64,000 bases of DNA, from the IMG/VR virus record IMGVR_UViG_3300042975_000096; one strand, written 5' to 3'. Source of the DNA: a virus (lineage: Duplodnaviria > Caudoviricetes). The notes under the pieces were generated by a model. That model did not search any database and was not told the DNA's origin. It was given only the letters and a program-made list of their open reading frames with translations. The number at the start of each line of letters is the position of its first letter. The stretch's first letter is position 1. Shown one piece after another: positions 20,644 through 48,794 of the stretch. Both the position numbers and the translations under genes were made by a program.

Positions 20644-23106
20644 TTAATTCGTGCTGTTTTTGTATGTTGATGCACACAAGTCAATGGTATCAACAGTAAT
20701 TCCACCAAAACCTTTTCTACCAGTAACTTTCACAATAGCATTAACAAAAATTTCTTTCTTATTTCTTTGATAAATATTATCCCAAACAGTTAATCGTATC
20801 GTTTCTCTAGGAGTTTGAATCACAACATTTTTGAAATCTTTTCCTTTTTTTGTCTGACGATTAATAATGTTTGTAATAATACCTGCTGTCCTTGTTATTT
20901 TTCCATCAGGTATGCTATCAAATGGAGGAAGATTCTTTAATTTATCCTCTAGCGGATGTGGAATAAATGTTAATGCAAATTTTTCCATTTCTTTCAGATA
21001 TTGGGATATTTTATTTTCTTTTAAATTAACAATATCATCATATGCTTTTTCAAAAGCTATTTCCTCTTTCGTTAATTTAATTTCTGCTTTTTCTTCTTTC
21101 AATATTCCTTTAGGTTTTTTTCTAGTCTTATAAGATAAAACCGCATCTTCCTTAAATCCGAATTGCTCTAGCATTGGTGATGGTATAACTAATGTACCAT
21201 CTTTTTCATAAATTAAATCATCACCGAATTCTTCTAAATATTTACCCTTAATCAAATCTTGGGGTATTGCATAATTCGGAACAGCTTTACTGCTCTTACA
21301 TTCTAAATATTGCTTATACCAAAGCTCTTGTTGCTCACGATTCATATAAACAGCAACCGTATTTTCATCGTGTTGTTTAATCGTTAATGTTCCAATATCC
21401 TCATAATCAATAAGATTTTGGTTCACAATTAATGCAATGTTTTCAAATGCACCAATATCAATTCCAGCTTCAACGACAGCTTTTCCACCGCCTTTTCCAC
21501 CTTTATTCTTTAAGAAAAATTCTTGAAAATTAGCGAATGGTTGATTTGGCACTAAATCTTCAACTGCCTTTTCTCCAATTCCTTTTACGCATTTCAAGCC
21601 CATACGAATGACATTATTATCTATATCTTCAATTATAGATTCATACTTTGATTTTGAAATATCAGGTGGAGCAATTACAATGCCGTGTCGTTTTGCTTCT
21701 TTCATACATTCTTGTAAACTATCAACTGATTCTGTATTGAATAATGATACATAAAATACCAATGGATAGTTAGCTTTTACCCATGCTGTCCAATATGAAA
21801 TGAATGAATATGCGATAGAATGTGATTTATTGAATAGATATGCACAATTATCTAAGATTGCTTTACGAATATCTTCACAAGCTTTTCTGTCAATTCCACG
21901 TTTTACGCCTTCAGTAACAGATTTTTCCTCAAATTCTTTTACTAATTCAACATTTCCCTTTTTATTTGGCTTTTCCAACGCTCTACGATAAATATCAGCC
22001 TTACCAAAAGAAACCCCTAACAGCTCACTTATCAAAGACATAATTTGTTCCTGGTAAACGATTCCTCCCATAGTAACTGCCAAATGTTTATCCAAAATTG
22101 GATGGAATTTTCTTATTTTACTTGGGTCTTTCTTTGCAGCACAGTATTCATCCAATCCACTAGTTCCTGGGCGCACAAATGCGTTAACTGCTGAAAGTTC
22201 CTCTATGTTTCTTGGTTTTATTTTTCTAATAATATCTTTACCAATTGGAGAAGACATCTGAAAAATTCCCATGGTATCACATGAACAAATTAAATCCCAT
22301 GATTTTTTATCATCCATGGGAATATCTTCCAATTTCATATCAACCTTATAAACTTTTTTCAATACTTCCATTTGGTTATACAATGCACTAATATTTTTTA
22401 ATCGAAGTATATCTAGTTTTACTGCTCCTGCTGTTTCAACATTTTCTTTTTCAAATTGTGCCATTAATCCAACAAAACCATTAGGCGTTGGAGTAGCTTC
22501 CTCAACAGGCATTAAATCGGTTATAGGCATTGGCGTTACGCAAATACCTGCTGGATGCTGAGAATGATGTCTAGGTGCACCATATAGCTTTTCACAATGT
22601 TGAAAAACACCTTGATGTTTTGCAAAAAAAGCCTTTAATTCTTTTATTTCTAAAAGCTCTTTGAATTCCTTAAAATCTTTTCCATCCTTTGGAACAAATT
22701 TAGTAATTGCATTAACTTCTGAAATTGGGACTTCAAATGCTCGACTAACGTCTTTAATTATTGCTCTTGCTTGCAAATTAGAAAATGTAATGATATTACA
22801 ACAATGGTCTTTACCATATAATTTATTTAAATGTTCAAAAACCTGTGAACCTTTAAAAATGCAAAAATCCGAATCAATATCAGGCAAATGTCCTCTATCT
22901 GCATTTAGAAAACGGTCAAAAATCAAATCATACTTCATAGGATTAACCTGCGTAATATTCAAAGCATAATTAACTAATGACCCTGCACCACTATTATGAA
23001 CAATTAGTCCATCAATATTATACGAATGCGCATCTTCAACAGTTAAATCATATACTTTTCCTTTATATGAGGAAATTTCTTTTTTCGTTATTTGTTTAAA
23101 TTTCAA
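20644..23106 (-). CDS. dnaE: DNA polymerase III alpha, C-terminal half, with N-terminal split-intein C fragment
   Basis: First 38 aa end VYDLTVEDAHSYNIDGLIVHN, then SGAGSLV; catalytic PDIDSDF, HPAG, KLDIL, YQEQIM, FNKSHS, OB-fold C-terminus. Confidence 0.95.
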   Translation of the reverse strand: MKFKQITKKEISSYKGKVYDLTVEDAHSYNIDGLIVHNSGAGSLVNYALNITQVNPMKYDLIFDRFLNADRGHLPDIDSDFCIFKGSQVFEHLNKLYGKDHCCNIITFSNLQARAIIKDVSRAFEVPISEVNAITKFVPKDGKDFKEFKELLEIKELKAFFAKHQGVFQHCEKLYGAPRHHSQHPAGICVTPMPITDLMPVEEATPTPNGFVGLMAQFEKENVETAGAVKLDILRLKNISALYNQMEVLKKVYKVDMKLEDIPMDDKKSWDLICSCDTMGIFQMSSPIGKDIIRKIKPRNIEELSAVNAFVRPGTSGLDEYCAAKKDPSKIRKFHPILDKHLAVTMGGIVYQEQIMSLISELLGVSFGKADIYRRALEKPNKKGNVELVKEFEEKSVTEGVKRGIDRKACEDIRKAILDNCAYLFNKSHSIAYSFISYWTAWVKANYPLVFYVSLFNTESVDSLQECMKEAKRHGIVIAPPDISKSKYESIIEDIDNNVIRMGLKCVKGIGEKAVEDLVPNQPFANFQEFFLKNKGGKGGGKAVVEAGIDIGAFENIALIVNQNLIDYEDIGTLTIKQHDENTVAVYMNREQQELWYKQYLECKSSKAVPNYAIPQDLIKGKYLEEFGDDLIYEKDGTLVIPSPMLEQFGFKEDAVLSYKTRKKPKGILKEEKAEIKLTKEEIAFEKAYDDIVNLKENKISQYLKEMEKFALTFIPHPLEDKLKNLPPFDSIPDGKITRTAGIITNIINRQTKKGKDFKNVVIQTPRETIRLTVWDNIYQRNKKEIFVNAIVKVTGRKGFGGITVDTIDLCASTYKNSTN
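22993..23106 (-). other. Split intein C fragment (IntC, 38 aa)
   Basis: Block F VYDLTV and block G terminal HN followed by a Ser +1 nucleophile; basic N-terminal part. Confidence 0.9.
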
Positions 23107-23129: not shown

Positions 23130-23159
23130 AGTATATTGCATTTTCTGTTTTTTTGTCTA
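23130..23159 (-). promoter_or_regulatory. Sigma-A-like promoter for dnaE-C
   Basis: TAGACA-18 nt-TATACT upstream of the GGGGA RBS and TTG start. Confidence 0.55.
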
Positions 23160-23161
23160 GT

Positions 23162-23458
23162 TATTGGATTCACGCACCCGTACAGGGTGCGACGAGATGG
23201 TACAACTGAAGAAGTTAGTACCTTATGTGTTTCAATTCACGCACCTCTGCGAGGTGCGACTCTGACATGATTAAAAAATCTAAAGCATTGCAAATTTCAA
23301 TTCACGCACCTCTGCGAGGTGCGACTGACGGAGACAAAATAAATTATAGCCGTTGGTCAATTTCAATTCACGCACCTCTGCGAGGTGCGACGTTGGATAT
23401 CCTGCCCTGTCTTACCCTCTGCCACTATTTCAATTCACGCACCTCTGCGAGGTGCGAC
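23162..23458 (-). CRISPR. Type I-C-like CRISPR mini-array 1 (5 repeats, 4 spacers of 35/33/34/35 nt)
   Basis: 32-nt repeat GTCGCACCTCGCAGAGGTGCGTGAATTGAAAT (minus strand) at 23229, 23294, 23360, 23427, plus a degenerate trailer repeat at 23162. Confidence 0.95.
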
Positions 23459-23658
23459 AACACACATGCCAAAGCCTTGCTACGCAAGGGCTGAAATGGC
23501 ACTTTGTGCGAACCCCTAACTATTTTACAAAATTCGTTTACATTTCCCCATGTAAACCTCAATGAACCCTGTAAAACAAAGAGGTGCGAAGCACCTAGTG
23601 TTTTTCTGTTCACTTATGCTTCGCACTTATTATAACATTTTATCCATTCATTTGTCAA
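23459..23658 (-). promoter_or_regulatory. CRISPR leader 1 with sigma-A promoter
   Basis: Near-identical to 25274-25473 and 33450-33649; TTGACA-18-TATAAT with TG extension at 23629-23658. Confidence 0.9.
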
Positions 23659-23748
23659 GCTGATTATCTCAAAATAACCATAGCATCAATAAAAATTATG
23701 ATTATTCAACTCTGTTAATTCTTTTTTTCTTAATATATTACATATCCA

Positions 23749-23985
23749 TTAACAATCCCCTCCGCAATCTCCACCGTCGAATCCACCATATCCACCGTCA
23801 AAGCCACCGCCATTAAGTCCAACATCACCAGTTGGATAATCTGTACCTTGACCTTGATTAGGATTATCTAAGTTAAAATCTACGTTATTAATATTATTAT
23901 CTCCATAGCCCCAATACCATGGCAAACCATAATATGCATGATAAGGCGAACCTGGAAATTTAACCAATCTTTTTTTTGTTGCCAT
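23749..23985 (-). CDS. Small aromatic/Gly-rich low-complexity protein
   Basis: 78 aa, RBS AGGTGG, N-terminal KKRL, GGFDGG repeats. Confidence 0.6.
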   Translation of the reverse strand: MATKKRLVKFPGSPYHAYYGLPWYWGYGDNNINNVDFNLDNPNQGQGTDYPTGDVGLNGGGFDGGYGGFDGGDCGGDC

Positions 23986-23989
23986 TTTA

Positions 23990-24280
23990 TTACCACCTAA
24001 TATTTAATTTGTTCTTATTTCTTGTTACTTCATATAACGAATCCTTCAATGCACGTACAATTGAATTTACATTTTTTTCATCTTCCACAAAATAAAATAT
24101 CTGATGTTTACTTTTGTTATTTAAAATAGCCAATGTGATTTCATTCAATTCTTTAGTGAACGAATCAGTTGAATTTACTTGTTCAGCAGAAATAATATAT
24201 ATTGGCACTTGTGTTTCCCATTGCATATTATTTTTACCTATATCATAGCCAACATTTTCAAAATTAAAATCAAACATCAT
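23990..24280 (-). CDS. Hypothetical protein
   Basis: 96-aa ORF with RBS AAAGGA. Confidence 0.55.
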   Translation of the reverse strand: MMFDFNFENVGYDIGKNNMQWETQVPIYIISAEQVNSTDSFTKELNEITLAILNNKSKHQIFYFVEDEKNVNSIVRALKDSLYEVTRNKNKLNIRW

Positions 24281-24319
24281 TTTGGGTTTTCCTTTCTTTT
24301 TATATAGTATATTAAAATT

Positions 24320-24982
24320 TTATATACTATTTCTTTTGCCATAAATATCTTTTACTTTATATTTTCGCAATTCTTCATCTAATTCAGCAGAACCCTGAAA
24401 AAATGGATATGCATACTTATCAGGAATATATAAATTTTTCTTAAACCAATCCACGCACATAAACGTATCTGATTTAATAAATTCTTCATATTGTGTATAA
24501 TTTCGATTACACAACATTCCATTAAGAATATCCATACCTGGTACTGCTAATTTTGATTGAATTGCATACATTTTATTTAATATTTTCATTTTATTTATAT
24601 CTTTTGATATTTTATACATTCTCCATAATCTATTCTCATCATTCTTGCCATTAACATAAACAAAATCATGAAAATACGAATGCATACCTAATTCAAATCC
24701 ATGATTATTTAATAAATCTTCTATTTCATATATATTTAAAAATTGATTATTACCATTTATTCGATAATCCCATTGATAATACACCTCTGACGGCTCTTCT
24801 TTTCTTTTAGTAAAAGAAACATATGTTGGAACAATAAATATTATTTTTTTACAATCAATTTTATCCAATTCATATCTATATTTAAAAACATTATAGTGAG
24901 CATCATCAAACGTCAATACATCATTTTTTTCTATTTTTCTATTAAATATTTTAGCCACATCATCATGAATACAAAAAATCAT
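24320..24982 (-). CDS. Polysaccharide deacetylase (NodB/CE4)-like protein
   Basis: LTFDD, ELGMHSYFH, YAYPF motifs. Confidence 0.75.
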   Translation of the reverse strand: MIFCIHDDVAKIFNRKIEKNDVLTFDDAHYNVFKYRYELDKIDCKKIIFIVPTYVSFTKRKEEPSEVYYQWDYRINGNNQFLNIYEIEDLLNNHGFELGMHSYFHDFVYVNGKNDENRLWRMYKISKDINKMKILNKMYAIQSKLAVPGMDILNGMLCNRNYTQYEEFIKSDTFMCVDWFKKNLYIPDKYAYPFFQGSAELDEELRKYKVKDIYGKRNSI

Positions 24983-25047
24983 ATCACCACAACTCCTTCT
25001 ACTAGTATAATATGATTTTTACAATTAATTTATTCATTTTCTTTATT

Positions 25048-25273
25048 TATTTTATTCACGCACCCGTATGGGTGCGACCGAAATGGATGCAGACCATGTA
25101 ACGGCATGGAGTATTTCAATTCACGCACCTCGCAGAGGTGCGACATTATGATTTTTCGCATCAAGTCAAGGTGTATATTTCAATTCACGCACCTCTGCGA
25201 GGTGCGACACGCCCTATAAAAAATCAAAAATGTGTTATGACATTTCAATTCACGCACCTCTGCGAGGTGCGAC
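25048..25273 (-). CRISPR. Type I-C-like CRISPR mini-array 2 (4 repeats, 3 spacers of 34/32/33 nt)
   Basis: Repeats at 25113, 25177, 25242 plus a degenerate trailer ending at 25078. Confidence 0.95.
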
Positions 25274-25473
25274 AGCACACATGCCAAAGCCTTGCTACGC
25301 AAGGGCTGAAATGGCATTTTGTGCGAACCCCTAACTATTTTACAAAATTCATTGACATTTCCCCATGTAAACCTCAATGAACCCTGTAAAACAAAGGGGT
25401 GCGAAGCACCTAGTGTTTTTCTGTTCACTTATGCTTCGCACTTATTATATCATTTAATTTATTATTTTGTCAA
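25274..25473 (-). promoter_or_regulatory. CRISPR leader 2 with sigma-A promoter
   Basis: Copy of leader 1; TTGACA-18-TATAAT at 25444-25473. Confidence 0.9.
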
Positions 25474-25481
25474 GTGGTTTT

Positions 25482-25733
25482 TTATTCAAATGAAAATCCT
25501 TTAACATTATTTTCTTCATCACAAATAGCATTTATAATTTCTTTAATGTTTTCTTTTTGTTCTGTATATACGCTACTTTTCATTTTGGAAGCACCATCAC
25601 CATCAACAAAAACAGGAAATTTTGCAGAATGACCCACTCTACCTAAATGTTCCATATATAACAACATTAAATCAATTTGTTCTAGCTGTTCTTTTGTTCC
25701 AACAACTTCATAAGTTTTCTTATATTGTTGCAT
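25482..25733 (-). CDS. Hypothetical protein
   Basis: Likely start MQQYKK with RBS AAGGA; GRVGHS...VDGDG motif. Confidence 0.55.
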   Translation of the reverse strand: MQQYKKTYEVVGTKEQLEQIDLMLLYMEHLGRVGHSAKFPVFVDGDGASKMKSSVYTEQKENIKEIINAICDEENNVKGFSFE

Positions 25734-25749
25734 AACTGTATTTCCTTTC

Positions 25750-26526
25750 TTACCAACCACCAGAAGCTCCACCGCCACCAGAGCTTCCTCCACCAAATCC
25801 GTCTCCGTCATCTCCATCTCCAATGCAAGATAGAAGAACGTTAAATATTACTTCTAGCAATCCAGTCTTTGCTAAGAAAATAATTGCAATAATTACTAAA
25901 ACGCCTATTCCACATTGTTCAATTAAAGTTAAAGATAATATAAATAAAACCAAATCGCCTAGAAATCCACCACTTATCGGAACACTTTCTTGAAACGTTT
26001 CTCTTTCCGGTTGCACCTCGCCATATTCTTCATATGTCATTCCAACCAAATCTTGATAAACTGTAAAGACTCCTTCGGAAAATTTATTATCTTTAAAATA
26101 CGGGGCTAATTTTTGAAGTTCTTCTCCTGCCATACCATCAGTTATTTTACCTTCCATTCCATAACCAATTTCTATGCGGAATTTTTTATCATTTTTAGAG
26201 ATAAGCAATAATATTCCATTATTCTTATCTTTGCTACCTATTCCCCATTGTCTAAATAATTCATTTGAATATGATTCAATATCAGAACCATTTAATGAAT
26301 CTACCGTTACAACAACAATTTGCGCATGATGCTTATTGTCTAATTCTTTTCCCATTGCCAATATTTTCTTCTTGCATTCATCATTTAACATATGTGCATT
26401 GTCTTGAACATAAATATCACTTTTTGGTTTATCAGGATATTTTATTGTACCATTATTATTCCCACAGCCAACCAATATAGCCATAATCATTGCGCACAAC
26501 AATACACAATATACAAATTTTCTCAA
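25750..26526 (-). CDS. TPM-domain (YgcG-like) membrane lipoprotein
   Basis: Lipobox LVGC, VQDNAHML, WGIGSKDKNNGILLLI, RIEIGYGMEG, TM helix, FGGGSSGGGGASGGW tail. Confidence 0.9.
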   Translation of the reverse strand: MRKFVYCVLLCAMIMAILVGCGNNNGTIKYPDKPKSDIYVQDNAHMLNDECKKKILAMGKELDNKHHAQIVVVTVDSLNGSDIESYSNELFRQWGIGSKDKNNGILLLISKNDKKFRIEIGYGMEGKITDGMAGEELQKLAPYFKDNKFSEGVFTVYQDLVGMTYEEYGEVQPERETFQESVPISGGFLGDLVLFILSLTLIEQCGIGVLVIIAIIFLAKTGLLEVIFNVLLSCIGDGDDGDGFGGGSSGGGGASGGW

Positions 26527-26595
26527 ATTTATTCACCTTTGCTTATAAATATAGCTATTGCACACATGTACAATAGCTATATTTGTTTTATTTAA

Positions 26596-27153
26596 TTAGA
26601 ATTCAACCTTTGGTGCGGATTTTGCATTATCATCTGCTTTAAATTGTTCCATCGTCTGGAATCCAAATACATTAGCAAACATATTCCCCGGGAATGTAGT
26701 AACCTTCAGGTTATAATTTCTAACAGCCCCAACATAATCCTTACGTGCCACAGCAATACGGTTTTCTGTACCTGCAAGCTCATTCATAAGCTGAGTATAC
26801 TGTTTATCAGCCTTCAAGTTTGGATAGTTTTCCACAACCATCATGAGTCTAGACAATGCGCCATTCAGTTCTGTATTTGCTTCATCCTTCTGAACAGGTG
26901 TTTGTGCAGAACCCATTTTGGCTCTTGCATCTGCAACTGCCTGAATTGCCTTTTCCTCATGAACTGAATATCCCTTAACAGTGTTTACCAAATTAGGAAT
27001 CAAGTCATAACGGCGTTGCATTTGATTTTCTACCTGTGACCATTGTGTGTCCACATTGACTTTAGAACTTTGCATTCCGTTATACTCTCCCACACAAAAC
27101 AATGCAAGAACTACAAATACTCCTGCAATAATCCATTTCATTTGTTTGCTCAT
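26596..27153 (-). CDS. lemA: LemA family protein
   Basis: QRRYDLIPNLV, ENYPNLKA, ELAGTENRIAVAR, FPGNMFA. Confidence 0.95.
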   Translation of the reverse strand: MSKQMKWIIAGVFVVLALFCVGEYNGMQSSKVNVDTQWSQVENQMQRRYDLIPNLVNTVKGYSVHEEKAIQAVADARAKMGSAQTPVQKDEANTELNGALSRLMMVVENYPNLKADKQYTQLMNELAGTENRIAVARKDYVGAVRNYNLKVTTFPGNMFANVFGFQTMEQFKADDNAKSAPKVEF

Positions 27154-27515
27154 TTTTTCAAATCTCCTTCAAAACTTTTTTTATCTTTAGTTTCACGAAT
27201 GCCATTAATAATTTGCTGTGAAACACGAGTCATTTTATCCACAATTTCAAGCAACTCATCTTCATTATCAGAACAATAAAAATTATTCTGTTTCATTTGA
27301 TATTCATTATGTTTCATATATGTTTCTAAAGTCAATAATTCACGTTTAAATGATTGAATATTATAATTTAATCCCAAAAGAGATTTGTTATAAACCTGTC
27401 CAACTTCCCGTGCAAGTCCTTTACACAACGTTTCAGACATTTGCTTATTAACAAACTCATCGTTTTCTTTTTCAACGTCAATTCCTTCTGGTGGTAAAAC
27501 AATTTTCATATCCAT
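27150..27515 (-). CDS. Hypothetical protein
   Basis: 121-aa ORF with RBS AAGGAG. Confidence 0.6.
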   Translation of the reverse strand: MDMKIVLPPEGIDVEKENDEFVNKQMSETLCKGLAREVGQVYNKSLLGLNYNIQSFKRELLTLETYMKHNEYQMKQNNFYCSDNEDELLEIVDKMTRVSQQIINGIRETKDKKSFEGDLKK

Positions 27516-27608
27516 GTTAAACTCTCCTTTTTTTATATTAATTATTATATTAAAATTGAAAAAACAATTTTAATTTCCTTTTTATTATATGATATATTTT
27601 CAATTTTA

Positions 27609-28025
27609 TCAATCAAAAATATTACCAATAACATTAATAGCATGGTTTGCAACATAACATTTCAAATAATCTCTACTACCATCTTCAAATTCAATATCAA
27701 AGCACCCATCATTGAATTTTACAATCCCATTATATTTTTTCAAATAACAGCTAACAATATCATTTTCATAAATAAGTTTATGATTATTATCAGCCATATC
27801 TGAACACATACATACTGTATCACCATCAACTTCTGCACGAAGATGCTGATTGGGTAAATTCCAATCAGTCATTGAATCGTAAACAATATAATGTTTTTTA
27901 TTGTTTTTTCTTTCTTCTTCTGAAATTTCATCCTCAAAACAAAATGTTGTTTCCTCTAAACAAATATAATATCCAGTTACAAAATGTTCGGAATCTATCA
28001 ACTTAGCTCTCGCTTTTAACACCAT
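27609..28025 (-). CDS. YopX-family phage protein
   Basis: LKARAK...V.GYY, DNNHKLIYENDIV, C-terminal VIGNIFD; likely start at 28025. Confidence 0.8.
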   Translation of the reverse strand: MVLKARAKLIDSEHFVTGYYICLEETTFCFEDEISEEERKNNKKHYIVYDSMTDWNLPNQHLRAEVDGDTVCMCSDMADNNHKLIYENDIVSCYLKKYNGIVKFNDGCFDIEFEDGSRDYLKCYVANHAINVIGNIFD

Positions 28026-29085
28026 ACTCGCCACCTTTTTTAAGAATAGCATTTTGCAATGATACAGGTGATATTGGTAATGGTAAATCTTCCAATACGG
28101 AATAATCACAATCATAAGCATTACACATTTTTTTCGCCAAATCAATATCTAAATATGACATTTCAAATGTATAATCAAATCTTCCAGGGCGCACTAATGC
28201 TTTATCTAATTCATCAAATCGATTTGTAGTTGCAACAAAAATGCAATTAGTTGGTGATAATGCACCATCTAAAACATTTAATAACGTTTGCATAATATCG
28301 TTCTTATCATTATCTCTATCCGTTACCAAACAATCAATATCCTCAATCAAATAAACCGTTTTGTCACTAACCAAAGAAGAATATGATAATTTCTTATCTT
28401 TTACAGATATATATTCAATATTCCAATTCAGATAAGAAGCAATTGCTCGTGCCATAGATGATTTTCCAGTACCAGGTTTACCATAAAACAAAAATCCCAA
28501 CTTATATGTGATTCCATGTTGAACATAAAAACTTTTTTTGTTTTTCCACTCATCCAAAATATTTTTTATTTCGTCTGTGTGCTGTGTAAACACATCATTT
28601 ATATTACGTTTCAATGCCCAAATCCATCCAATATCACTTTTTATAATGATACTATTTTCTTTCCCTGGAAGTTTATCGCTTAAATATTCTTTATAACCAG
28701 CTAAATATTTGTTTTTATTTTTTCCTATGATTTGGAGTTTTATCGAATATATTACTGAATATGCACTAGCTTTATCTAAGATTGTACTGTCAACAATAGC
28801 AAACGTTAAACCATCCAATTTCATATAATATGTACCTGTTGCTAAAACTACACCAGCCAAACAATTTCTAGAATATCGCACATGTCGTTTTAAGCTATTT
28901 GAGCCATTTACAGAAAAAACCCAATCCATTGAATTACTGTATATTTCCCCTTCTTCTGAACAAAACTGTATAGTAGAAGAGTTTAATTGAACTAAAACAC
29001 TGAATAATTTAGATGGAATATCTTTTAAAATAAATCCAAAGTAACCAAACAATGCAACAATTACACCTTGACTTAAAAAATCCAT
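28003..29085 (-). CDS. BCS1-like membrane-anchored AAA+ ATPase
   Basis: N-terminal TM segment, GFLFYGKPGTGKSS, LIEDID, LLNVLDG, LDKALVRPGRFD. Confidence 0.85.
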   Translation of the reverse strand: MDFLSQGVIVALFGYFGFILKDIPSKLFSVLVQLNSSTIQFCSEEGEIYSNSMDWVFSVNGSNSLKRHVRYSRNCLAGVVLATGTYYMKLDGLTFAIVDSTILDKASAYSVIYSIKLQIIGKNKNKYLAGYKEYLSDKLPGKENSIIIKSDIGWIWALKRNINDVFTQHTDEIKNILDEWKNKKSFYVQHGITYKLGFLFYGKPGTGKSSMARAIASYLNWNIEYISVKDKKLSYSSLVSDKTVYLIEDIDCLVTDRDNDKNDIMQTLLNVLDGALSPTNCIFVATTNRFDELDKALVRPGRFDYTFEMSYLDIDLAKKMCNAYDCDYSVLEDLPLPISPVSLQNAILKKGGEYGVKSES

Positions 29086-29099
29086 TTAATTTTCCCCTT

Positions 29100-29597
29100 C
29101 TACTCATTCTTATTTTTGATGAAATTTATAATTCTATCGACATCTTCTCTTTTCTTACCGAAAGAATACAAAATATTTTTTAACGTATTAATCTTTACTT
29201 CTGGATTCTTTTTATCCGAATCAATCCCAACATCAACGAATTGAATATTTATGTTTGTTAGAATTGACTTGTCAACGTTTTTAAAAAATAAATTTTTATC
29301 ATTAAATTCAATGGGGAATTCATTTTTCAAAAAACAAAAAATCGTATCCAATCTTTTGTTTCCATCTAAAATGATAAATTTATTATGTTTATCTTTATGG
29401 TAAAAAATAGGAACGTTAGGAAATCCTAAAAATAATGATTGAATATATGATTTTTTATTTTCTAAATCAAAAAATGTATCAGAATAAATTACAGAATTGT
29501 AATTATTTATCATTGATTTCAATTTAATCAAATTCATTTCTTCCGTATTATTAATGATTTTTCCCATTTTGGTTTTATAATCAATATCCGAAAACAT
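29100..29597 (-). CDS. Stand-alone DUF262 (ParB-like) domain protein
   Basis: YIQSLFLGFP.PIF and ILDGNKRL.TI..F (DGQQR variant). Confidence 0.7.
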   Translation of the reverse strand: MFSDIDYKTKMGKIINNTEEMNLIKLKSMINNYNSVIYSDTFFDLENKKSYIQSLFLGFPNVPIFYHKDKHNKFIILDGNKRLDTIFCFLKNEFPIEFNDKNLFFKNVDKSILTNINIQFVDVGIDSDKKNPEVKINTLKNILYSFGKKREDVDRIINFIKNKNE

Positions 29598-29625
29598 AAT
29601 ACATTTCCCCCATTTTCATAAATGT

Positions 29626-31299
29626 TTAACTTTCACCTTCACAAATATAATCGCCACAATCTAATTCTTCAGCACGATACCATTTTGGCTCTCGAATACC
29701 ATTATCAAAATCATGTTTTTTAATTGCCAATATTTTATGGTCTAAAGTAACATTTTTAATCACTTTTTCATCACAAGCAATTGAAGCAACCTTTTCTTCA
29801 ATATCATATTCATGTTTTGCAATCACCGGATGTTTCAATTCATCATGACAATAAACGACATCTCCAATAGAAACATTCTTTAATGGTTTAATCCCGTTTG
29901 TTGTTTTAACAACGTTATCTCCATCAAAGCAACCTCTACCTGGACCCAATGGCACATTATTTGTATGGCAAAAATCAGCAATATCATAATAAATCAAAAA
30001 ATAATCTGGGAAATCCATCTTATCAATAATTCCCAATTCATATTTAAGTCTATCACGATATTCTTTTGAAGTCAACTTCTTTTCCCTAAGACCCTTAATG
30101 CAAAGATATTTTAAATAATCCTCATTTGGTTTTTCAGGGTGACTAAGTTTGCTTCTCCATTTTTTAAATCCAGGCTCTTCAACAGGAATATTGATTTTTG
30201 GAAGATAATGTTTATCAAAACCAAAATGTACATTACATTGTTTTGCGATTTCTTCTGATTCATCAATTGCTTTTTCAATTGCAACCTGGTCTAAATCATT
30301 ATAATCAATTGTTCCTTCTTCTAGAACATCAATAAATCTATCATGAAACTTTTCGCTATCTTTTTCTACATATTTCATGCCATCATAAATTTTATCAGGC
30401 GATTCATATCTAGCACCATCATAATCATAAACATAAAATTCTTTATCAACATTACGCTTTTCATTATGAACTAAGATTTTTTTATATTTCATTTTTTTCT
30501 TAAATGAAGCAACAATTTCATCCCTAGACATAACATAATAAGAATTCCCCTGAAATCTCCATCTACTAGGGTCACTCATTAAACTTCCACTCTGCAAACA
30601 CAAAAGTACATCATGTGTGCTTTTATCTTCTTTATTGAGATAATGCGCATCTGTTGTAGCAACCAAAGGAATGCTCAAATCTTTGCTAAGTTCAATCAAT
30701 CCCTTATTTACCTTAAACTGCTCTACCATTTCTGTAGGTTGAATTTCCAACCAAAAATTACCATTAAATAATTTTTGATAATATAATGCCTGTTCTTTTG
30801 CAGATTCATAATCATCATGCAATAAACTTTGAGAAATAATTCCTGCCAAACAAGCGGATGTGCCAATTAAATCATTTTCTTTTTCGTCCATAAACATTTT
30901 TAAAACATTGTTATCAATTCTAGGACGATAATACTTTCCTGTAATGAATCCTTCAGAACAAATCTTACATAATTTTTTATAACCATTATTATTTTTAGCT
31001 AAAAGCAAAAAGTGATTTCTATTTGTAGTTGATTCATCTTCTGATTCAGACTTGCCCTTAATCAGTCTATCTTTAACCATATATGCTTCAAAACCAGCTA
31101 TTGGTTTTTGCCCCATTTTTTCTGCTCGTTTAAAGTGGTCAATAATAGTATACATGTTTCCATGGTCTGTAATACAAGATGCAATCTGATTCATTGCTAA
31201 TGTTTTATCAACCAAATCATTTACTTTTATCATTCCATCCAACAAACTACGTTCTGAATGTAAATGTAGATTAACAAAATTATTACTCAAAATATGCAC
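29626..31299 (-). CDS. dnaE: DNA polymerase III alpha, N-terminal half (PHP domain), with C-terminal split-intein N fragment
   Basis: FVNLHLHSERSLLDG, ITDHG, ATTDAHY, FPDYFLI, GPGRG followed by intein CFDGD... Confidence 0.95.
   Translation of the reverse strand: MHILSNNFVNLHLHSERSLLDGMIKVNDLVDKTLAMNQIASCITDHGNMYTIIDHFKRAEKMGQKPIAGFEAYMVKDRLIKGKSESEDESTTNRNHFLLLAKNNNGYKKLCKICSEGFITGKYYRPRIDNNVLKMFMDEKENDLIGTSACLAGIISQSLLHDDYESAKEQALYYQKLFNGNFWLEIQPTEMVEQFKVNKGLIELSKDLSIPLVATTDAHYLNKEDKSTHDVLLCLQSGSLMSDPSRWRFQGNSYYVMSRDEIVASFKKKMKYKKILVHNEKRNVDKEFYVYDYDGARYESPDKIYDGMKYVEKDSEKFHDRFIDVLEEGTIDYNDLDQVAIEKAIDESEEIAKQCNVHFGFDKHYLPKINIPVEEPGFKKWRSKLSHPEKPNEDYLKYLCIKGLREKKLTSKEYRDRLKYELGIIDKMDFPDYFLIYYDIADFCHTNNVPLGPGRGCFDGDNVVKTTNGIKPLKNVSIGDVVYCHDELKHPVIAKHEYDIEEKVASIACDEKVIKNVTLDHKILAIKKHDFDNGIREPKWYRAEELDCGDYICEGES
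29629..29931 (-). other. Split intein N fragment (IntN, 101 aa)
   Basis: Block A CFDGDNVVKT..G.K....V.IGD.V, block B VTLDHKI (TxxH), W..AEEL..GD, then stop. Confidence 0.9.
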
Positions 31300-31412
31300 T
31301 CCCCTTCGTAAATTTATTATATGTATTATTTTAAATTTTTATGATTTTAGCCAAAATGGATGGATGAAAAAGAGCAAAACAATTTTACGTTGTTTTGCTC
31401 TTTTTTTATTTT

Positions 31413-32183
31413 TTAGCAATCAATTGCTTTTCTTTCAATGGTACGCATAATTGAGTATACATTGTTTTTCCAATTTCCATCTGTTGCATAAACCGTATTA
31501 ATTGCCGCAATTGTTCCACCACGGTAATAAGAACCTGATTCATCACAATAATGCTCAGACAAAAACTGTGCTACATATGCGATACATTCAGCTTTTGAAG
31601 AAAAACTTCTTGCTGAACGTGTTGGGTCATTATCATATGCTTGAAAACCAAACAAATTATTTTTCGCATTTGCTAAATACGAACGACCCCATGAAGATTC
31701 ATTTGCTGCAAGTCCTGCCAAAAATACCGCATTAACTCCCGTATTCAGCTCTGCACTAACAAATGCCTCTCCCAAACCTTCAAGACCTGTACCTTCAAAC
31801 GCCTGATTAAGTTCATATGCCGTTACTGTAGATTGTGATTTTACAATAAACGAATATGGACTTGCTCCACTTCCACGATTGGTAATTTCGTGCTCGTTCG
31901 TCATGTGTTTTTCAGTAAGTCTTCCTGTGGTTTTTTCAATCTCGGATTGTTGAACTTGAACCTCCTTGGATATTTGGTTCATTTCTGTATGCATGTCTTC
32001 CATTTGTTGATTGAATTTTTCCATTTGTTCTTGCTGTTGCTGAAACATTAGTTTCTGCTCTTGATAATGTTGATAATCCATGTAGCTATTATATCCAATG
32101 TATGAAGCCATCAATGCTCCAATCAAAATAGCTACCCCTGTCTGTTTATTGTTTTTGATTGTATTAATAATTTTTCCTGTCAT
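31413..32183 (-). CDS. Membrane-anchored glucosaminidase (GH73) cell-wall hydrolase
   Basis: N-terminal TM helix, coiled coil, AANESSWGRS, KNNLFG, YATDGNW. Confidence 0.9.
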   Translation of the reverse strand: MTGKIINTIKNNKQTGVAILIGALMASYIGYNSYMDYQHYQEQKLMFQQQQEQMEKFNQQMEDMHTEMNQISKEVQVQQSEIEKTTGRLTEKHMTNEHEITNRGSGASPYSFIVKSQSTVTAYELNQAFEGTGLEGLGEAFVSAELNTGVNAVFLAGLAANESSWGRSYLANAKNNLFGFQAYDNDPTRSARSFSSKAECIAYVAQFLSEHYCDESGSYYRGGTIAAINTVYATDGNWKNNVYSIMRTIERKAIDC

Positions 32184-32317
32184 TCTCGCTCGTATGCAAC
32201 ACCTGTTTTCAAAACAAGCTACGTTTTTTATTACACACGATTTTCACATCCTTCCTTTTCATTTATTTTTATTTTTTAACCAACACGTTTTTGTGGTTAA
32301 TTTCATTTGATAATCAT

Positions 32318-32346
32318 ATTATAGCATACCGTATTCCATTTGTCAA
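32318..32346 (-). promoter_or_regulatory. Consensus sigma-A promoter for the GH73 gene
   Basis: TTGACA-17 nt-TATAAT with TG extension. Confidence 0.8.
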
Positions 32347-32407
32347 CAATATGCAAAAAAGTGGTCACAAAAACCATGACCACTTTTGAAAAACTAACTT
32401 GATTTAA

Positions 32408-33100
32408 TTAGCCTAACATTGATAAAGCGTCTTGCTTCTCGTTTACAAAGCGATTATGTAGACCTTCCTTTACTACTGTATAAGAACCATTCGCCCAATC
32501 CTGTGGACTATGATACAAACCATTTGAATTTTCGGTTGCATTATCACATTCCTCAATCAAGAAGTCATAAATGTTTGCAATCATATCATAATCAAATTTT
32601 GCATCATCAACATATGATAAATTATCATATCCCATACGATTACATGCAATCGTATATAATTCAACCATATTACCTGAACCATATTGTGTAGCACGACTCA
32701 TCAAAACAGCTTGCATAGCTTCAGATTTTGTCGTAATATCATAATAATTATTCTTTAGTTTTTCAGCAGAACTATCAAAATACACACTTTGAGCATATGC
32801 ATCTTGCAATTCGCCAAATCCTTCAGGGTCATTTGCCCCAATTTCACGCCACGTATCAATAAATTCTTGGGAATTTACTTCATACTGACTTAATGTACGA
32901 CCATAATTAGCTAATGCATCATTTTCATAATTACATGCAAAATTCAAAAACGTTGTGAGTGCGCCCATATTGGAAGCCAATTGATAAATACCATATGAAA
33001 TTCCACCTAAGTCACCCTCACCCGTAGAAACCGCTCCCGGGTCTCCACTAGCTTCATACTTACGTACTAAACAAGAAATATTTGACATTGTTAAATTCAC
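32408..33100 (-). CDS. Lysozyme-like peptidoglycan hydrolase (VgrG3 C-terminal-like), candidate lysin
   Basis: KYEASGDPGAVSTG.GD.GGISYGIYQL, SRATQYG, NRFVNEKQDAL. Confidence 0.65.
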   Translation of the reverse strand: MNLTMSNISCLVRKYEASGDPGAVSTGEGDLGGISYGIYQLASNMGALTTFLNFACNYENDALANYGRTLSQYEVNSQEFIDTWREIGANDPEGFGELQDAYAQSVYFDSSAEKLKNNYYDITTKSEAMQAVLMSRATQYGSGNMVELYTIACNRMGYDNLSYVDDAKFDYDMIANIYDFLIEECDNATENSNGLYHSPQDWANGSYTVVKEGLHNRFVNEKQDALSMLG

Positions 33101-33158
33101 CTACCTTTTTTATTTTTTGTAGTATTCCTACATTAATGTAATATGTTGAGATACAAAA

Positions 33159-33234
33159 AATATAACCACTACATGTAGTGGTTATATTGATTAGAATTAC
33201 TCTATATAGTGTTTTTGCCACTATATAGAGTAAT
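33159..33234. repeat. Two adjacent perfect inverted repeats downstream of array 3
   Basis: 30-bp perfect palindrome AATATAACCACTACATGTAGTGGTTATATT (33159-33188) and a 16-bp stem hairpin (33196-33234). Confidence 0.85.
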
Positions 33235-33449
33235 ATTTCGATTCACGCACCTCGTAGAGGTGCGACGTTAGCAAGGTAGCAGATAACAAGCGATTAGCGG
33301 ACATTTCAATTCACGCACCCATACAGGGTGCGACTATCAGGATTGCACAAATTTCAATTCACGCACCTCTGCGAGGTGCGACGTTATATTTCTTTTCCGT
33401 TTCTCTATTTTATCTATATTTCAATTCACGCACCTCTGCGAGGTGCGAC
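33235..33449 (-). CRISPR. Type I-C-like CRISPR mini-array 3 (4 repeats; spacers of 36/16/35 nt)
   Basis: Repeats at 33235, 33303, 33351, 33418. Confidence 0.95.
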
Positions 33450-33649
33450 AGCACACATGCCAAAGCCTTGCTACGCAAGGGCTGAAATGGCACTTTGTGC
33501 GAACCCCTTAATGTTTTACAAAATTCATTGACATATCTACATGCAAATACGTATGAACCCTGTAAAACAAAGAGGTGCGAAGCACCTAGTGTTTTTCTGT
33601 TCACTTATGCTTCGCACTTATTATAACATTCTATTTATCATTTTGTCAA
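33450..33649 (-). promoter_or_regulatory. CRISPR leader 3 with sigma-A promoter
   Basis: Copy of leader 1 with a few substitutions; TTGACA-18-TATAAT at 33620-33649. Confidence 0.9.
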
Positions 33650-42353: not shown

Positions 42354-43649
42354 ATGGCAGGTGGAGTTTTTGGTGGCGGTGATGGTTCTCAAAAATCACC
42401 ATTCTTAATAGAAGACGGTGCAGATTTATATCAAATGAGAAATCATCCTACCTCCTATTTTAAATTAATCTCAAACATTAATTTAGGTGAACCACCATAT
42501 AATGAAAAACGTGGCTGGGAACCAATTAATAGTTTCCGTGGGAGATTAGATGGAAATTATAAAAAAATATTTAATTTAACAATTACTAGACAGGATGAAG
42601 ATGATATTGGTCTTTTTAGTGTAATTGATGCAAATGCATGTGGAACATCAACACCATGTTATAATGTTTGTTTTGAAGAAACAAATATTATTGGTGGTAA
42701 TAATGTCGGTGCACTTTGCGGTAGATTTATTCATAATAATGACACATGGATTGGAAAAATTGATTTTTCAATCATTCAAAATTGTTATGTAGATGGAAAC
42801 ATTGAAGGTAAAAATAACGTTGGTGGATTTATTGGTAAAATCGATTCTTCAGCAAGTGCAACACAAAATAGACAATTGCCAATCGCAAGAGATTCTATTT
42901 CAAACTGTTCTTTAGCATTATCAAATGCAGATTCTACATTTATTGGTCAATTCGTTGGAATTATATCTGATAAATGGAACAATAGTTGCCAATACACACA
43001 TCCAAATTTTTACAACACATTGGCAACGGGCAGTATTTCTCCAAATTCAAAAACGCCAACAAAACCAGGTAATTACTTCTATGATTTGTATAATCAAGGC
43101 GTTTATACGAATTCTTATATGGATAATGCTCTTTGGGGATTTACAAATTTTGGAGATACTACACTTAAATGTATGGATACGTCTGAATTGAAATCAATCG
43201 CAAATCAAGCTGATTTTGCAACAATATTGAATGACGATAAGATTTCTCATAAATTCAGTTTATACGATGGGAGATATGTACAATTAGCATATCAAAGCCC
43301 TGATTATTTCTTCATTAAGGCTGACGATAATTTCTATACTTATGATTTTACAACTTCAAAATGGATTTTAAAATACAATCTAACTCCTTCTAGACAACAA
43401 GCAATTATCAACGGAATGCGAGCTTTACAGGATGTTCCACAAACAGCATGGGATTATTTCAAAACATTCCAAAATGTAAGTATAATTGATATTCTAGACA
43501 AAAAAGATAGTACACTTCAAACAACACAAGAAACAGAATTAGATATAGATGCTACACATACTAGTGACGATAATAAAAAAATGATTGTAAAACAAAAATT
43601 TTATTTTAACACTAGAATCGGTAATCTATCTAAATTGACAGGATGGTGA
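42354..43649 (+). CDS. GLUG-motif beta-helix adhesin/fibre paralogue 1
   Basis: FGGGDGSQKSPFLIEDGADL, F.G.LDGN.K.I.NL.I, IGLFS, NVGGFIG. Confidence 0.8.
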   Translation: MAGGVFGGGDGSQKSPFLIEDGADLYQMRNHPTSYFKLISNINLGEPPYNEKRGWEPINSFRGRLDGNYKKIFNLTITRQDEDDIGLFSVIDANACGTSTPCYNVCFEETNIIGGNNVGALCGRFIHNNDTWIGKIDFSIIQNCYVDGNIEGKNNVGGFIGKIDSSASATQNRQLPIARDSISNCSLALSNADSTFIGQFVGIISDKWNNSCQYTHPNFYNTLATGSISPNSKTPTKPGNYFYDLYNQGVYTNSYMDNALWGFTNFGDTTLKCMDTSELKSIANQADFATILNDDKISHKFSLYDGRYVQLAYQSPDYFFIKADDNFYTYDFTTSKWILKYNLTPSRQQAIINGMRALQDVPQTAWDYFKTFQNVSIIDILDKKDSTLQTTQETELDIDATHTSDDNKKMIVKQKFYFNTRIGNLSKLTGW

Positions 43650-43656
43650 TTCTATA

Positions 43657-44937
43657 ATGGCTAATGGTTACTTTGGTGGGGGAGATGGAACTCCTGCTAA
43701 TCCATTTTTAATTGAAGATGCTGATGATTTAAATTCAATCAGAAAACATTTAGGTAGTAGTTATAAAATAATAAATGATATAAATTTAGCTGATGGTAAA
43801 TACAATGTAGAACAAGGATGGAATCCTATTGATAATTTTACAGGAACGTTAGATGGACAAAATCATAAATTAATTAATTTATATATTAATCGTCCTGCAC
43901 AAGATAATGTAGGATTATTTGGTCATGTACATGCCAACAATACAATCACAGTCAATAATTTACAAATAATTGATTGTGATATAACAGGGCATAATCAAGT
44001 TGGTTCGCTATTGGGATATAATGAAAATCCTTCTTGGGAATTTAATAGCTCATATACAGTTAATAATGTTTATGTTAAAGGAAAAATAACTGGTAATGCA
44101 AATGTAAGTGGTTTGATTGGTTATATAGGCATTATTGGTATTAATGGGGAATATCTTGATAAAGAAATTCGCACTTCCTTTACAATTAATTTAAATAATA
44201 TTTTTTGCAATGTTAATATTTCAAGCAATGACAACATTGCTTATGGTATAACTAAAATTATCGCAAATCGAATATCTGGTAGCAATTGCAATAGTCAATG
44301 GAATTGTAATTGTGTAACACAAGCATCTATTACTTTTACTAACTGTTTTACTATTATGCATAAAAACGATAAGATTTTAACTTATTATGCAATTTGCAAT
44401 CCTGAAAACAATAACAACACATACGCTTGTTATACAGATAACACGGAAATTTCTCCTATTATTTATTCAGGAACAGATTATGCTAATCTTCAAAATATAA
44501 AATTTCAAAATGGTTGGCTTCCAAAAATAGACCCAACTTATTATAATAAACAAATTGCCAAACAACCTGAACCTGTATTGTTGAATTTAAATAACATCTA
44601 TGTATTCTTTAATAATGGATATTACACTTATGATTTATCAACAAAAACGTGGACAAGAAAATATACCACTTTAGATAACAACAATTCAAAGAAAATAATT
44701 CAAAATGGAATGAATAAATTGGATTTCAATCACATTCCACAAGAAGTTTGGGTTACATTGAGCAAACAATATTCAGAAATTAAAGTGGTTAATTGTATTA
44801 ATGCACATGATAAAATATTGTATCATGAAAGCAGAGTTACATTGCCAACATATACAACTTCTGAAAGCAAAAATATTGTAAAGAAAAAAATAAAATTCGA
44901 AGACTTTAATAATAATATTACGAAAATTATAAAATAA
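43657..44937 (+). CDS. GLUG-motif adhesin/fibre paralogue 2
   Basis: FGGGDGTPANPFLIEDADDL, FTGTLDGQNH, NVGLFG. Confidence 0.8.
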   Translation: MANGYFGGGDGTPANPFLIEDADDLNSIRKHLGSSYKIINDINLADGKYNVEQGWNPIDNFTGTLDGQNHKLINLYINRPAQDNVGLFGHVHANNTITVNNLQIIDCDITGHNQVGSLLGYNENPSWEFNSSYTVNNVYVKGKITGNANVSGLIGYIGIIGINGEYLDKEIRTSFTINLNNIFCNVNISSNDNIAYGITKIIANRISGSNCNSQWNCNCVTQASITFTNCFTIMHKNDKILTYYAICNPENNNNTYACYTDNTEISPIIYSGTDYANLQNIKFQNGWLPKIDPTYYNKQIAKQPEPVLLNLNNIYVFFNNGYYTYDLSTKTWTRKYTTLDNNNSKKIIQNGMNKLDFNHIPQEVWVTLSKQYSEIKVVNCINAHDKILYHESRVTLPTYTTSESKNIVKKKIKFEDFNNNITKIIK

Positions 44938-44952
44938 GGCAGGTGATTAGAT

Positions 44953-46245: not shown

Positions 46246-46263
46246 TAATGGACGGTGATAATT

Positions 46264-47555
46264 TTGGCAAGTGGAAAATTTGGTGGCGGTAATGGTTCAG
46301 CTAGTACCCCATACTTAATAGAAGATGTAAAAGACTTAAATGCAATTCGTTTCTTCCCTGATAAATGTTTCAAATTAACGCAGAGCATTAATCTTAGCGT
46401 TTATCCTTATAATACAAATTCAGGTTGGCTTCCAATTGCAAACTTTTGTGGTCAATTAGATGGCGATGGTCACAAAATAATTAATTTGTACATTAATAGA
46501 CCTAATATTGATAACGTTGGATTTTTCTCTGTTATTTTCAAAAAAACGAACATTGATTTGGTTGTAAAGAATTTATACTTTGACAACGCTACAGTTTATG
46601 GAAATAATAATGTCGGCGTTGTGGCAGGAGCAATCAATATTCAAGAAACAGTTGCCCCACAAACGAACTATTTCTTTGAAAAATTAAAAATTACAGGCAC
46701 AATTAATGGTAGCAATCAAGTCGGTGCAGTATTAGGAAGAATTTATTGGGATGGAACTTTTGCATGGACTCCTAATTTCATTCTTAATTCAAGAACAACA
46801 GTTAAAGTTACTGTTAAGTCTTCTGGCGTTGACTATTCAGGATTGGTTGGATATGGTGCATTATCTAGAGGAACAATAAAAGTTTCTCACTTCATATCCG
46901 ATTGTAGTTTCAGTAACATTGTTGCTGGTGCTACCACAACCTTAAATCCAAATCATTGGACAAGAACTGATACAAATGGAATTACTTATGATAATTCGTT
47001 CTACAGTTCTGATACATGGACTTATGGAACAAAAACAAATAACAAAACAAATCAAGAATTATCCGTTGTTACTTTGGGTGATTTTGATAAACAAATAAAC
47101 CCTGACGGACTTTGGTTTGGAGTTTTAAAAAGAATGATAGAGTTGTAGACTTGAATCTCTTCTTATTCAAAAAGCATTTTATAAAAACTTCTAAGGGATA
47201 TTATATATATGACTTTGATAAATCACAATGGGTAAAGAAGTTTGATAAACCTTATACTCGTGAACAATTGATTGCTAACGCAATGGACAATGTAGATAAT
47301 ATTCCATTTAAAGGATGGGATGCATTAAAAGCATTACTTCCTTCAGGAGAAACTACTTTTGATTTGATTGACATAATTGAAGATTCTAATGGAACTACGT
47401 ATACAGAATCTATATTAAACATGGATTTGGATTCTACACATACGGCAGGTACAGATAAAAAATTATTCTCAAAAAAAATCACATTCGTTGATTCTAATGG
47501 CAAAAAATTATATGGCGATACAATTGTTCAAATTGATAAAGGAATTATAAAATAA
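46264..47555 (+). CDS. GLUG-motif adhesin/fibre paralogue 4, split by a -1 frameshift at about 47106-47130
   Basis: ORF 46255-47148 has the family N-terminus and ORF 47112-47555 the family C-terminus (YYIYDF....W, IP..GW..L, YGDTIVQI); joined length about 430 aa like its neighbours. Confidence 0.75.
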
Positions 47556-47569
47556 GAGGTGTTTTACTA

Positions 47570-48778: not shown

Positions 48779-48794
48779 AGGAAGGTGAATATTA

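What the first reader, a model, noticed from the sequence alone, without database searches (positions are those of the whole stretch)
23162..33649. Three dispersed, cas-less type I-C CRISPR mini-array cassettes with duplicated leaders
Seen: three arrays (4, 3 and 3 spacers, none shared) with the same 32-nt repeat ending ATTGAAAT, each with its own copy of a roughly 200-nt leader and promoter, all on the minus strand. No cas gene is recognisable in 64 kb. Established: this repeat family belongs to type I-C (Cas5d processing), and viral mini-arrays can co-opt host Cascade. Inference: the phage has multiplied a leader-promoter-array module that borrows host Cascade and possibly Cas1-2-4, each copy acquiring spacers separately, to attack competing elements or host genes, or to titrate Cascade.
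Basis: partly seen in the sequence, partly recalled or inferred. Interest (0 to 1): 0.8.

Follow-up and report, generated by a model that had tools for sequence, protein, structure and literature searches.

The report
Jumbo phage guides target a satellite
A giant bacterial virus carries three small CRISPR guide cassettes with no Cas genes nearby, and several guides match a small tail-less parasite virus that carries a restriction enzyme, so the giant probably borrows its host's CRISPR proteins to destroy rival elements and the defences they bring.

Summary
Confirmed: three promoter-leader-array cassettes (4, 3, 3 spacers; one spacer only 16 nt) lie on the minus strand of a ~430-kb phage-G-like phage. 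Two sit between the halves of a split-intein dnaE. Sibling phages hold all three at the same sites with different spacers and leader-end additions; a ~70%-identical relative lacks the two between the dnaE halves. No Cas gene was found in ~110 kb; the rest is not held. New: real targets. Spacer 25079-25112 matches 34/34 (PAM TTT) the restriction-endonuclease gene of a circular ~14-kb tail-less, capsid-forming satellite (cf-PICI-like), found in the same metagenome as a sibling carrying that spacer. Spacer 23261-23293 matches its terL (30/33, PAM TTC); a sibling spacer matches its primase end (35/35). Another sibling spacer hits an accessory gene that it lacks but our window carries. Best reading: host type I-C Cas is borrowed to acquire spacers and attack satellites, temperate phages and siblings. 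Host, transcription and interference are unproven. The scan noted like cassettes elsewhere on this genome, none on other genomes, and no satellite target.

The parts
23629..23658 (-). A1 sigma-70 promoter, perfect -35/-10 with 18-nt spacing and extended -10
23459..23628 (-). A1 type I-C leader (~170 nt)
23162..23458 (-). Array A1: 5 repeats, 4 spacers; ends 56 nt before the dnaE-C start codon
23261..23293 (-). Spacer matching satellite terL, 30/33, PAM TTC (L222 1551-1583)
23194..23228 (-). Terminal A1 spacer; homologous to the 5' end of the ParB-like/DNA-methylase gene of temperate-phage packaging modules (family level only, 8-9 mismatches); a same-length allele with 8 differences sits at the same position in sibling L089
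25444..25473 (-). A2 promoter
25274..25443 (-). A2 leader
25048..25273 (-). Array A2: 4 repeats, 3 spacers
25079..25112 (-). Terminal A2 spacer; 34/34 match, PAM TTT, to the HNH-site region of the satellite's DUF262-HNH restriction endonuclease gene
33620..33649 (-). A3 promoter
33450..33619 (-). A3 leader
33235..33449 (-). Array A3: 4 repeats, 3 spacers
33335..33350 (-). 16-nt spacer: the 3' remnant of a 38-nt spacer that is intact in siblings L094/L105/L106
33267..33302 (-). Terminal A3 spacer; three same-length alleles among siblings (6 differences; one mosaic); target not found
33159..33234 (-). Two strong hairpins after A3, the second terminator-like
28403..28437 (+). Protospacer (3 mismatches here, 2 in other siblings; upstream TTT) inside the accessory AAA-ATPase gene 28003-29085, matched by an A2 spacer of sibling L088, which lacks the gene
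29626..31299 (-). Context: dnaE N-half ending in a 101-aa N-intein
20644..23106 (-). Context: dnaE C-half starting with a 38-aa C-intein

Best explanation
The three units are working, virus-borne type I-C mini-arrays that borrow the host's Cas proteins. (1) Shown in sequence: each cassette is a consensus sigma-70 promoter fused to a full I-C leader and 3-4 spacers. (2) Inferred: host RNA polymerase transcribes them early and host Cas5d cuts at the conserved stems. (3) Strongly indicated: a Cas1-Cas2-Cas4 integrase adds spacers at each leader, because siblings differ at the leader end and loop variants of the first repeat are copied into the newest units; old spacers are lost by repeat-repeat deletion and leaders exchange segments. 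(4) Shown as sequence matches: guides point at other mobile DNA of the same community, namely a tail-less capsid-forming satellite (its restriction endonuclease, terL and primase end), temperate-phage packaging genes (family level) and an accessory gene of sibling jumbo phages. (5) Inferred: host Cascade-Cas3 degrades those targets, removing competitors and the restriction system that the satellite brings; cutting an integrated satellite damages the host chromosome, which costs a lytic phage little. Many leaders give many parallel acquisition sites, all next to a strong promoter.
For: Perfect promoters and I-C leader motifs. Same-site arrays with different spacers and leader-end additions in siblings 96-99.7% identical to the window. 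34/34 and 35/35 matches with TTT, 30/33 with TTC (chance of the imperfect matches 4e-6 and 7e-8). TTC and TTT are the two best I-C PAMs (PMC5602111). Target L213 comes from JGI sample 3300045594, which also holds sibling L089 carrying that spacer. The two perfectly matching anti-satellite spacers sit in the oldest array position in several strains. The carrier of the anti-AAA spacer lacks the gene. No Cas among 101 ORFs.
Against: Only about 110 of 430 kb were tested for cas genes. No host genome with this repeat or leader was found, so a matching host Cas is assumed. No RNA data. Six of nine full-length window spacers and most sibling spacers have no target in what could be searched. The satellite and the phage are linked to one host only through the spacers and weak homologue names. 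The satellite still carries intact protospacers and PAMs, so no escape from targeting is visible.
Confidence: 0.66

Rival explanations
1. Passive record: host Cas1-Cas2 writes fragments of whatever replicates in co-infected cells (induced satellites, prophages) into any available leader; the guides give little benefit.
For: Satellite hits are spread over three genes; protospacers and PAMs in the satellite are intact; turnover is fast and some spacers decay by deletion.
Against: Perfect promoter boxes are kept while the bases between them drift; repeat stems are kept by paired changes; anti-satellite spacers persist in the oldest position; the anti-AAA spacer occurs in a strain that lacks the gene.
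Confidence: 0.12
2. Decoy function: strongly expressed crRNAs mainly titrate host Cascade away from anti-phage guides (Racr-like), whatever they match.
For: Several strong promoters on a replicating genome; short or degenerate units exist (16-nt spacer; lone repeats noted elsewhere on the genome, untested here).
Against: Units are full repeat-spacer-repeat arrays with leaders and PAM-flanked real targets; the 16-nt spacer is a deletion remnant. A side effect of titration is not excluded.
Confidence: 0.09
3. The phage encodes its own (possibly variant) I-C effector elsewhere, as some huge phages do, and the arrays are satellites of that locus.
For: About 320 kb unseen; huge phages with a variant I-C system lacking Cas1/Cas2 are described (PMC7162821); no host with this repeat was found.
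Against: None in ~110 kb; earlier readers of other windows of this genome report none (unchecked); the only Cas12-like protein seen is an IS605 TnpB beside tnpA in a sibling.
Confidence: 0.09
4. Regulatory guides that silence host cas or other host genes (Cracr/crlRNA type).
For: One 16-nt spacer; one sibling spacer reads as a RecJ DHH motif and could be chromosomal.
Against: The short spacer is a remnant of a normal 38-nt spacer; matched targets are perfect or near-perfect and lie in mobile elements.
Confidence: 0.04

Closest known systems
Leader-bearing, cas-less mini-CRISPR arrays of archaeal viruses SPV1/SPV2 (Medvedeva et al. 2019, PMC6858448)
   Same: Virus-borne, promoter-containing leader, no cas genes seen, same position with different spacers in relatives, spacers against related viruses (carrier lacks the target) and against another mobile element.
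   Different: Bacterial type I-C, lytic-type jumbo phage, 3-5 spacers, at least three leader cassettes here and more noted elsewhere on the genome; best-supported target is a satellite and its restriction enzyme. That paper states that the bacterial phage mini-arrays known then lacked leaders.
ICP1 phage-encoded type I-F CRISPR-Cas against the PLE satellite of Vibrio cholerae (as described in PMC5481146)
   Same: A large phage aims CRISPR spacers at a phage satellite that can defend the host.
   Different: ICP1 carries its own cas genes and PLE parasitises ICP1. Here no cas gene was seen, the satellite is cf-PICI-like with its own capsid and a type II R-M cargo, and nothing shows that it uses this phage as helper.
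Compact CRISPR arrays of huge phages (Al-Shayeb et al. 2020, PMC7162821)
   Same: Huge phage, short arrays, no acquisition genes, spacers against other phages.
   Different: Here one promoter-leader module is copied to many sites, its turnover is traced across sibling strains, and specific PAM-flanked targets are found.
cfPICI satellites (de Sousa et al. 2023, PMC10085698), for the target element
   Same: About 14 kb; integrase, primase, HNH, terminase, portal, protease, capsid, head-tail connector and adaptor; no tail gene; defence cargo.
   Different: Regulator not recognised; seen only as a circular form and fragments; host probably Negativicutes (unproven).
Racr solitary repeat units (PMC10651486) and Cracr regulatory RNAs (10.1101/2024.10.29.618823)
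   Same: Phage RNAs that load host Cas proteins without phage cas genes.
   Different: These cassettes have leaders, full-length changing spacers and external targets.

Membership tests
Type I-C CRISPR array | 32-nt repeat with a short stem-loop and the conserved I-C 3' end, like bacterial I-C repeats | tested here: met
   2-3 mismatches to long bacterial arrays; one variant identical to a Ruminococcaceae MAG repeat
Type I-C CRISPR array | Leader with the inverted-repeat motifs of bacterial I-C leaders | tested here: met
   (83-88% over the 25-48 nt motif block)
Type I-C CRISPR array | Spacers of about 33-37 nt and a 5' TTC (or TTT) PAM at targets | tested here: met
   PAM ranking from PMC5602111
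Type I-C CRISPR array | Adjacent cas3-cas5d-cas8c-cas7-cas4-cas1-cas2 operon | tested here: not met
Type I-C CRISPR array | Processing by Cas5d into crRNAs | not testable with these tools
SPV1/SPV2-type viral mini-array | Virus-borne, with promoter-containing leader | tested here: met
SPV1/SPV2-type viral mini-array | No cas genes in the virus genome | tested here: inconclusive
   about 110 of 430 kb tested
SPV1/SPV2-type viral mini-array | Only 1-2 spacers | tested here: not met
   3-4 in the window, 1-5 in siblings
SPV1/SPV2-type viral mini-array | Same site, different spacers in related viruses | tested here: met
SPV1/SPV2-type viral mini-array | Spacers target close relatives while the carrier lacks the target | tested here: met
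   one case, in sibling L088; none of the window's own spacers hit the sibling DNA at hand
SPV1/SPV2-type viral mini-array | Repeat and leader match those of the host | tested here: inconclusive
   host not found
ICP1-type anti-satellite CRISPR-Cas | Spacers against a satellite | tested here: met
ICP1-type anti-satellite CRISPR-Cas | Phage-encoded cas genes beside the arrays | tested here: not met
ICP1-type anti-satellite CRISPR-Cas | The satellite is induced by and inhibits this phage | not testable with these tools
   needs host and infection assays
cfPICI (target element) | Integrase, primase, HNH, terL, portal, protease, capsid, head-tail connector and adaptor | tested here: met
   terS assigned by position only
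cfPICI (target element) | About 14 kb, no tail genes | tested here: met
   L220 and L222 close a circle of about 14.3 kb; all long ORFs are accounted for
cfPICI (target element) | AlpA/MerR/Stl regulator present, holin absent | tested here: inconclusive
   76-aa and 84-aa genes have no confident family
cfPICI (target element) | Chromosomal integration and tail hijacking | not testable with these tools
   no host flanks recovered
Racr / Cracr | Solitary repeat, or short spacer complementary to a cas promoter | tested here: not met
   multi-repeat arrays with leaders; the 16-nt spacer is a deletion remnant; cas promoters could not be checked without the host

The most novel reading that the evidence does not exclude
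A jumbo phage with no cas genes of its own runs a distributed, continually updated set of type I-C leader cassettes and uses host Cascade-Cas3 as counter-defence against a resident capsid-forming satellite whose restriction enzyme protects the host; in addition, long-lived spacers are refreshed against the same site of a drifting target (re-acquisition at the same PAM or in-place conversion), as suggested by two same-position, same-length spacer pairs that differ in codon-like fashion.
Probability: 0.35. Interest if true: 0.82.

Novelty: new variant of a known kind. Interest (0 to 1): 0.66.

Why it matters
Cas-less viral arrays are known, but their targets in bacteria are mostly inferred and were taken to be sibling phages. 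Here targets are found with PAMs, and the best ones lie on a defence-carrying satellite: an ICP1-versus-PLE-like conflict apparently fought with borrowed Cas. If true, host CRISPR-Cas can be turned against the host's own island-borne immunity by about 450 bases of phage DNA. Multiple leader copies with traceable turnover in wastewater strains also make in-trans spacer acquisition by a phage, TTT PAM use and same-site spacer renewal directly testable.

Tried and rejected
No whole genome held; the 430-kb sibling record could not be searched by handle. 997 bacterial I-C spacers gave no real match to the phage. Rfam and tRNA scans empty. Patterns for the terminal A1 and A3 spacers found no true target. 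INPHARED and plasmid searches gave only family-level or repeat hits. RecJ walk in IMG/VR found nothing. Satellite not found in 401 sampled genomes beyond 63-80% R-M homologues. Short 18-29 nt spacers and a 38-nt variant in L087 and L238 (sample 3300051660, contigs with frameshifted genes; one spacer contains repeat-like letters) were treated as likely long-read consensus artefacts and not used. The 16-nt spacer as a designed repressive guide was rejected (remnant). An EcoRI-site avoidance signal was not seen (0.87 of expected).
Full report
Observation. The three arrays are real and lie on the minus strand: A1 23162-23458 (5 repeats, 4 spacers), A2 25048-25273 (4 repeats, 3 spacers) and A3 33235-33449 (4 repeats, 3 spacers). 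Seven of 13 repeats are the exact 32-nt consensus; the variants folded keep a 7-8 bp hairpin. One spacer is only 16 nt. Each array is preceded by a ~170-nt leader (233-nt block, 91-100% identical) that begins directly at the -10 box of a perfect sigma-70 promoter; three of the four perfect promoters in the 11-kb region are these. The repeat is 2-3 changes from long bacterial I-C arrays and the leader shares the inverted-repeat motif block of bacterial I-C leaders.

The carrier. The window is 30.6% GC and encodes DnaE, RecJ, ClpX, SbcCD, a sigma factor and methylases; the best INPHARED hit of DnaE is Bacillus phage G at 41.5%. A sibling contig is 430,772 nt. A1 and A2 lie between the two halves of a dnaE split by an intein (101-aa N part, 38-aa C part), a known fractured-gene arrangement (PMC2677866). 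A relative at about 70% nucleotide identity has the same split gene and orthologues of two of the genes between the halves but no array or leader there, so the cassettes are lineage-specific. No Cas family appears among 101 ORFs of the window plus about 45 kb further left (only the top 25 families are printed). About 320 kb remain untested by me. The host is unknown: the best named homologues of the phage lemA (about 60%, Sporomusaceae/Selenomonadales; same lemA-TPM order in Thermosinus) and of the target's terminase (51%, Pectinatus) point to Negativicutes, which is a lead only.

The arrays are alive. Sibling contigs from JGI, ENA and Logan assemblies, mostly 96-99.7% identical to the window outside the arrays, carry all three cassettes at the same sites with 1-5 spacers; 46 distinct spacers were collected, 31 of them 33-35 nt, and five more later. 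Strains that share old spacers differ at the leader end (A3 of L094, L105, L106). Loop variants of the first repeat are copied through the newest units (L088 A2, L089 A1, L119 A3), as expected when Cas1-Cas2 duplicates the leader-proximal repeat (established knowledge). The 16-nt spacer is the 3' end of a 38-nt spacer intact in L094/L105/L106. Leader middle segments are shared across sites rather than within a site, which suggests conversion between copies (inference).

Targets. (a) Spacer 25079-25112 first hit a DUF262-HNH gene of a Flavobacterium phage at 30/34. A codon-degenerate scan then found L213 (IMGVR_UViG_3300045594_000395), a 34/34 match with TTT upstream, from the same JGI sample as sibling L089, which carries the spacer. 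The gene is a type II restriction endonuclease by PADLOC (E 1.5e-88) beside its methylase. Relatives of L213 show the whole element: HNH, small terminase by position, terL, portal, protease, capsid, head-tail connector, head closure, one small gene, the R-M pair, integrase and primase; L220 and L222 close a circle of about 14.3 kb with no tail gene. This fits the cfPICI definition (median 14 kb; PMC10085698) except for an unrecognised regulator and unseen integration. The protospacer is identical in endonuclease alleles from elements about 85% identical. (b) Spacer 23261-23293 matches terL of L222 at 30/33 with TTC (chance 4e-6). (c) The terminal A3 spacer of siblings L119 and L242 matches the primase end of L220/L221/L223 at 35/35 with TTT. 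(d) An A2 spacer of L088 matches the accessory AAA-ATPase gene of siblings (2 mismatches; 3 in the window at 28403-28437; TTT), and L088 lacks that gene. (e) Family-level only: the terminal A1 spacer reads as the start of the ParB-like/methylase gene of temperate-phage packaging modules (8-9 mismatches) and a sibling spacer as a terminase large subunit. TTC and TTT are the first and second PAMs of a type I-C system for acquisition and interference (PMC5602111). Six of nine full-length window spacers remain unassigned.

An unexplained pattern. The terminal spacers of A1 (window versus L089, 8 differences) and A3 (window versus L088/L118/L239, 6 differences, plus a mosaic allele in L125) are same-position, same-length homologues; read in the coding frame, about half of the changed codons are silent. 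Other shared spacers are identical between strains and flanks differ by about 1%, so drift is unlikely. Re-acquisition at the same PAM of a drifted target followed by deletion of older units, or conversion of the spacer by target DNA, would explain it. Neither allele was found as a natural gene, so this is inference.

How it most likely works. Host polymerase reads the cassettes early, host Cas5d matures the RNA, host Cascade-Cas3 cuts matching DNA and host Cas1-Cas2-Cas4 adds spacers at each leader. The sequence anatomy, turnover and PAM-flanked targets are shown; use of host proteins, expression and interference are inferred. The satellite is worth attacking either as a competitor or, more likely, for its restriction enzyme; the phage avoids GATC completely (0 seen, about 650 expected counting both strands), so restriction pressure on it is real, though the satellite enzyme's site is unknown. 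Rivals are a passive record (0.12), Cascade titration (0.09), phage-encoded Cas elsewhere (0.09) and host-gene silencing (0.04).

Comparison and verdict. It works like the leader-bearing mini-arrays of SPV1/SPV2 (PMC6858448) but exceeds their 1-2 spacer definition, and like ICP1's anti-PLE CRISPR (PMC5481146) but without cas genes beside the arrays; compact arrays without acquisition genes are common in huge phages (PMC7162821). My paper searches found no report of cas-less phage arrays aimed at a cfPICI or its R-M cargo (the library is incomplete). Earlier scan notes describe like cassettes elsewhere on this genome and guessed the HNH reading of spacer 25079-25112; none on other genomes and none names a satellite target. 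Verdict: new variant of a known kind, interest 0.66.

Noticed in passing
window 20644-23106 and 29626-31299: Naturally split intein in phage DnaE; the 6.5 kb between the halves holds two CRISPR cassettes and variable cargo instead of a homing endonuclease. The split is conserved in a 70%-identical relative (L085).
   Followed up: partly
L085:6806-7166: A 360-nt insertion in the relative's dnaE C-half that looks like a self-splicing intron.
   Followed up: no
window 1-64000 plus L110-L112: GATC is entirely absent from about 110 kb (about 650 expected, both strands) although the phage encodes two Dam-family methylases; GGCC is also depleted.
   Followed up: no
window 23743 (upstream of the A1 promoter): About 2 kb with 5-6 genes, including a radical SAM gene, present in L089/L094 is deleted in the window; L088/L090 have an IS605 (tnpA plus TnpB-like) there.
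   Followed up: partly
window 23573-23596 and equivalents: Each leader holds a terminator-like hairpin plus U-tract about 40 nt after the promoter; possible attenuator.
   Followed up: no
window 23130-23159: A1 ends just upstream of dnaE-C, which has its own promoter-like site (10/12); read-through and Cas5d cutting could affect its mRNA.
   Followed up: no
L101:350-480: A2 leader and first repeats are missing and the upstream gene is joined directly to a spacer; real deletion or misassembly.
   Followed up: no
L089:4718-4749: Sibling spacer reads as a RecJ DHH motif; 16 of its first 17 nt match this phage's own recJ, so the target may be a host or rival-phage recJ.
   Followed up: partly
window 25750-27153: lemA-TPM pair in the same order as in Thermosinus, probably captured from a Negativicutes host.
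   Followed up: partly
window 29100-29597: The phage encodes a stand-alone DUF262 (GmrSD N-terminal) protein, the same domain family as the targeted satellite endonuclease but without HNH.
   Followed up: no
window 42354-52166: Tandem paralogous genes sharing a conserved 5' block.
   Followed up: no
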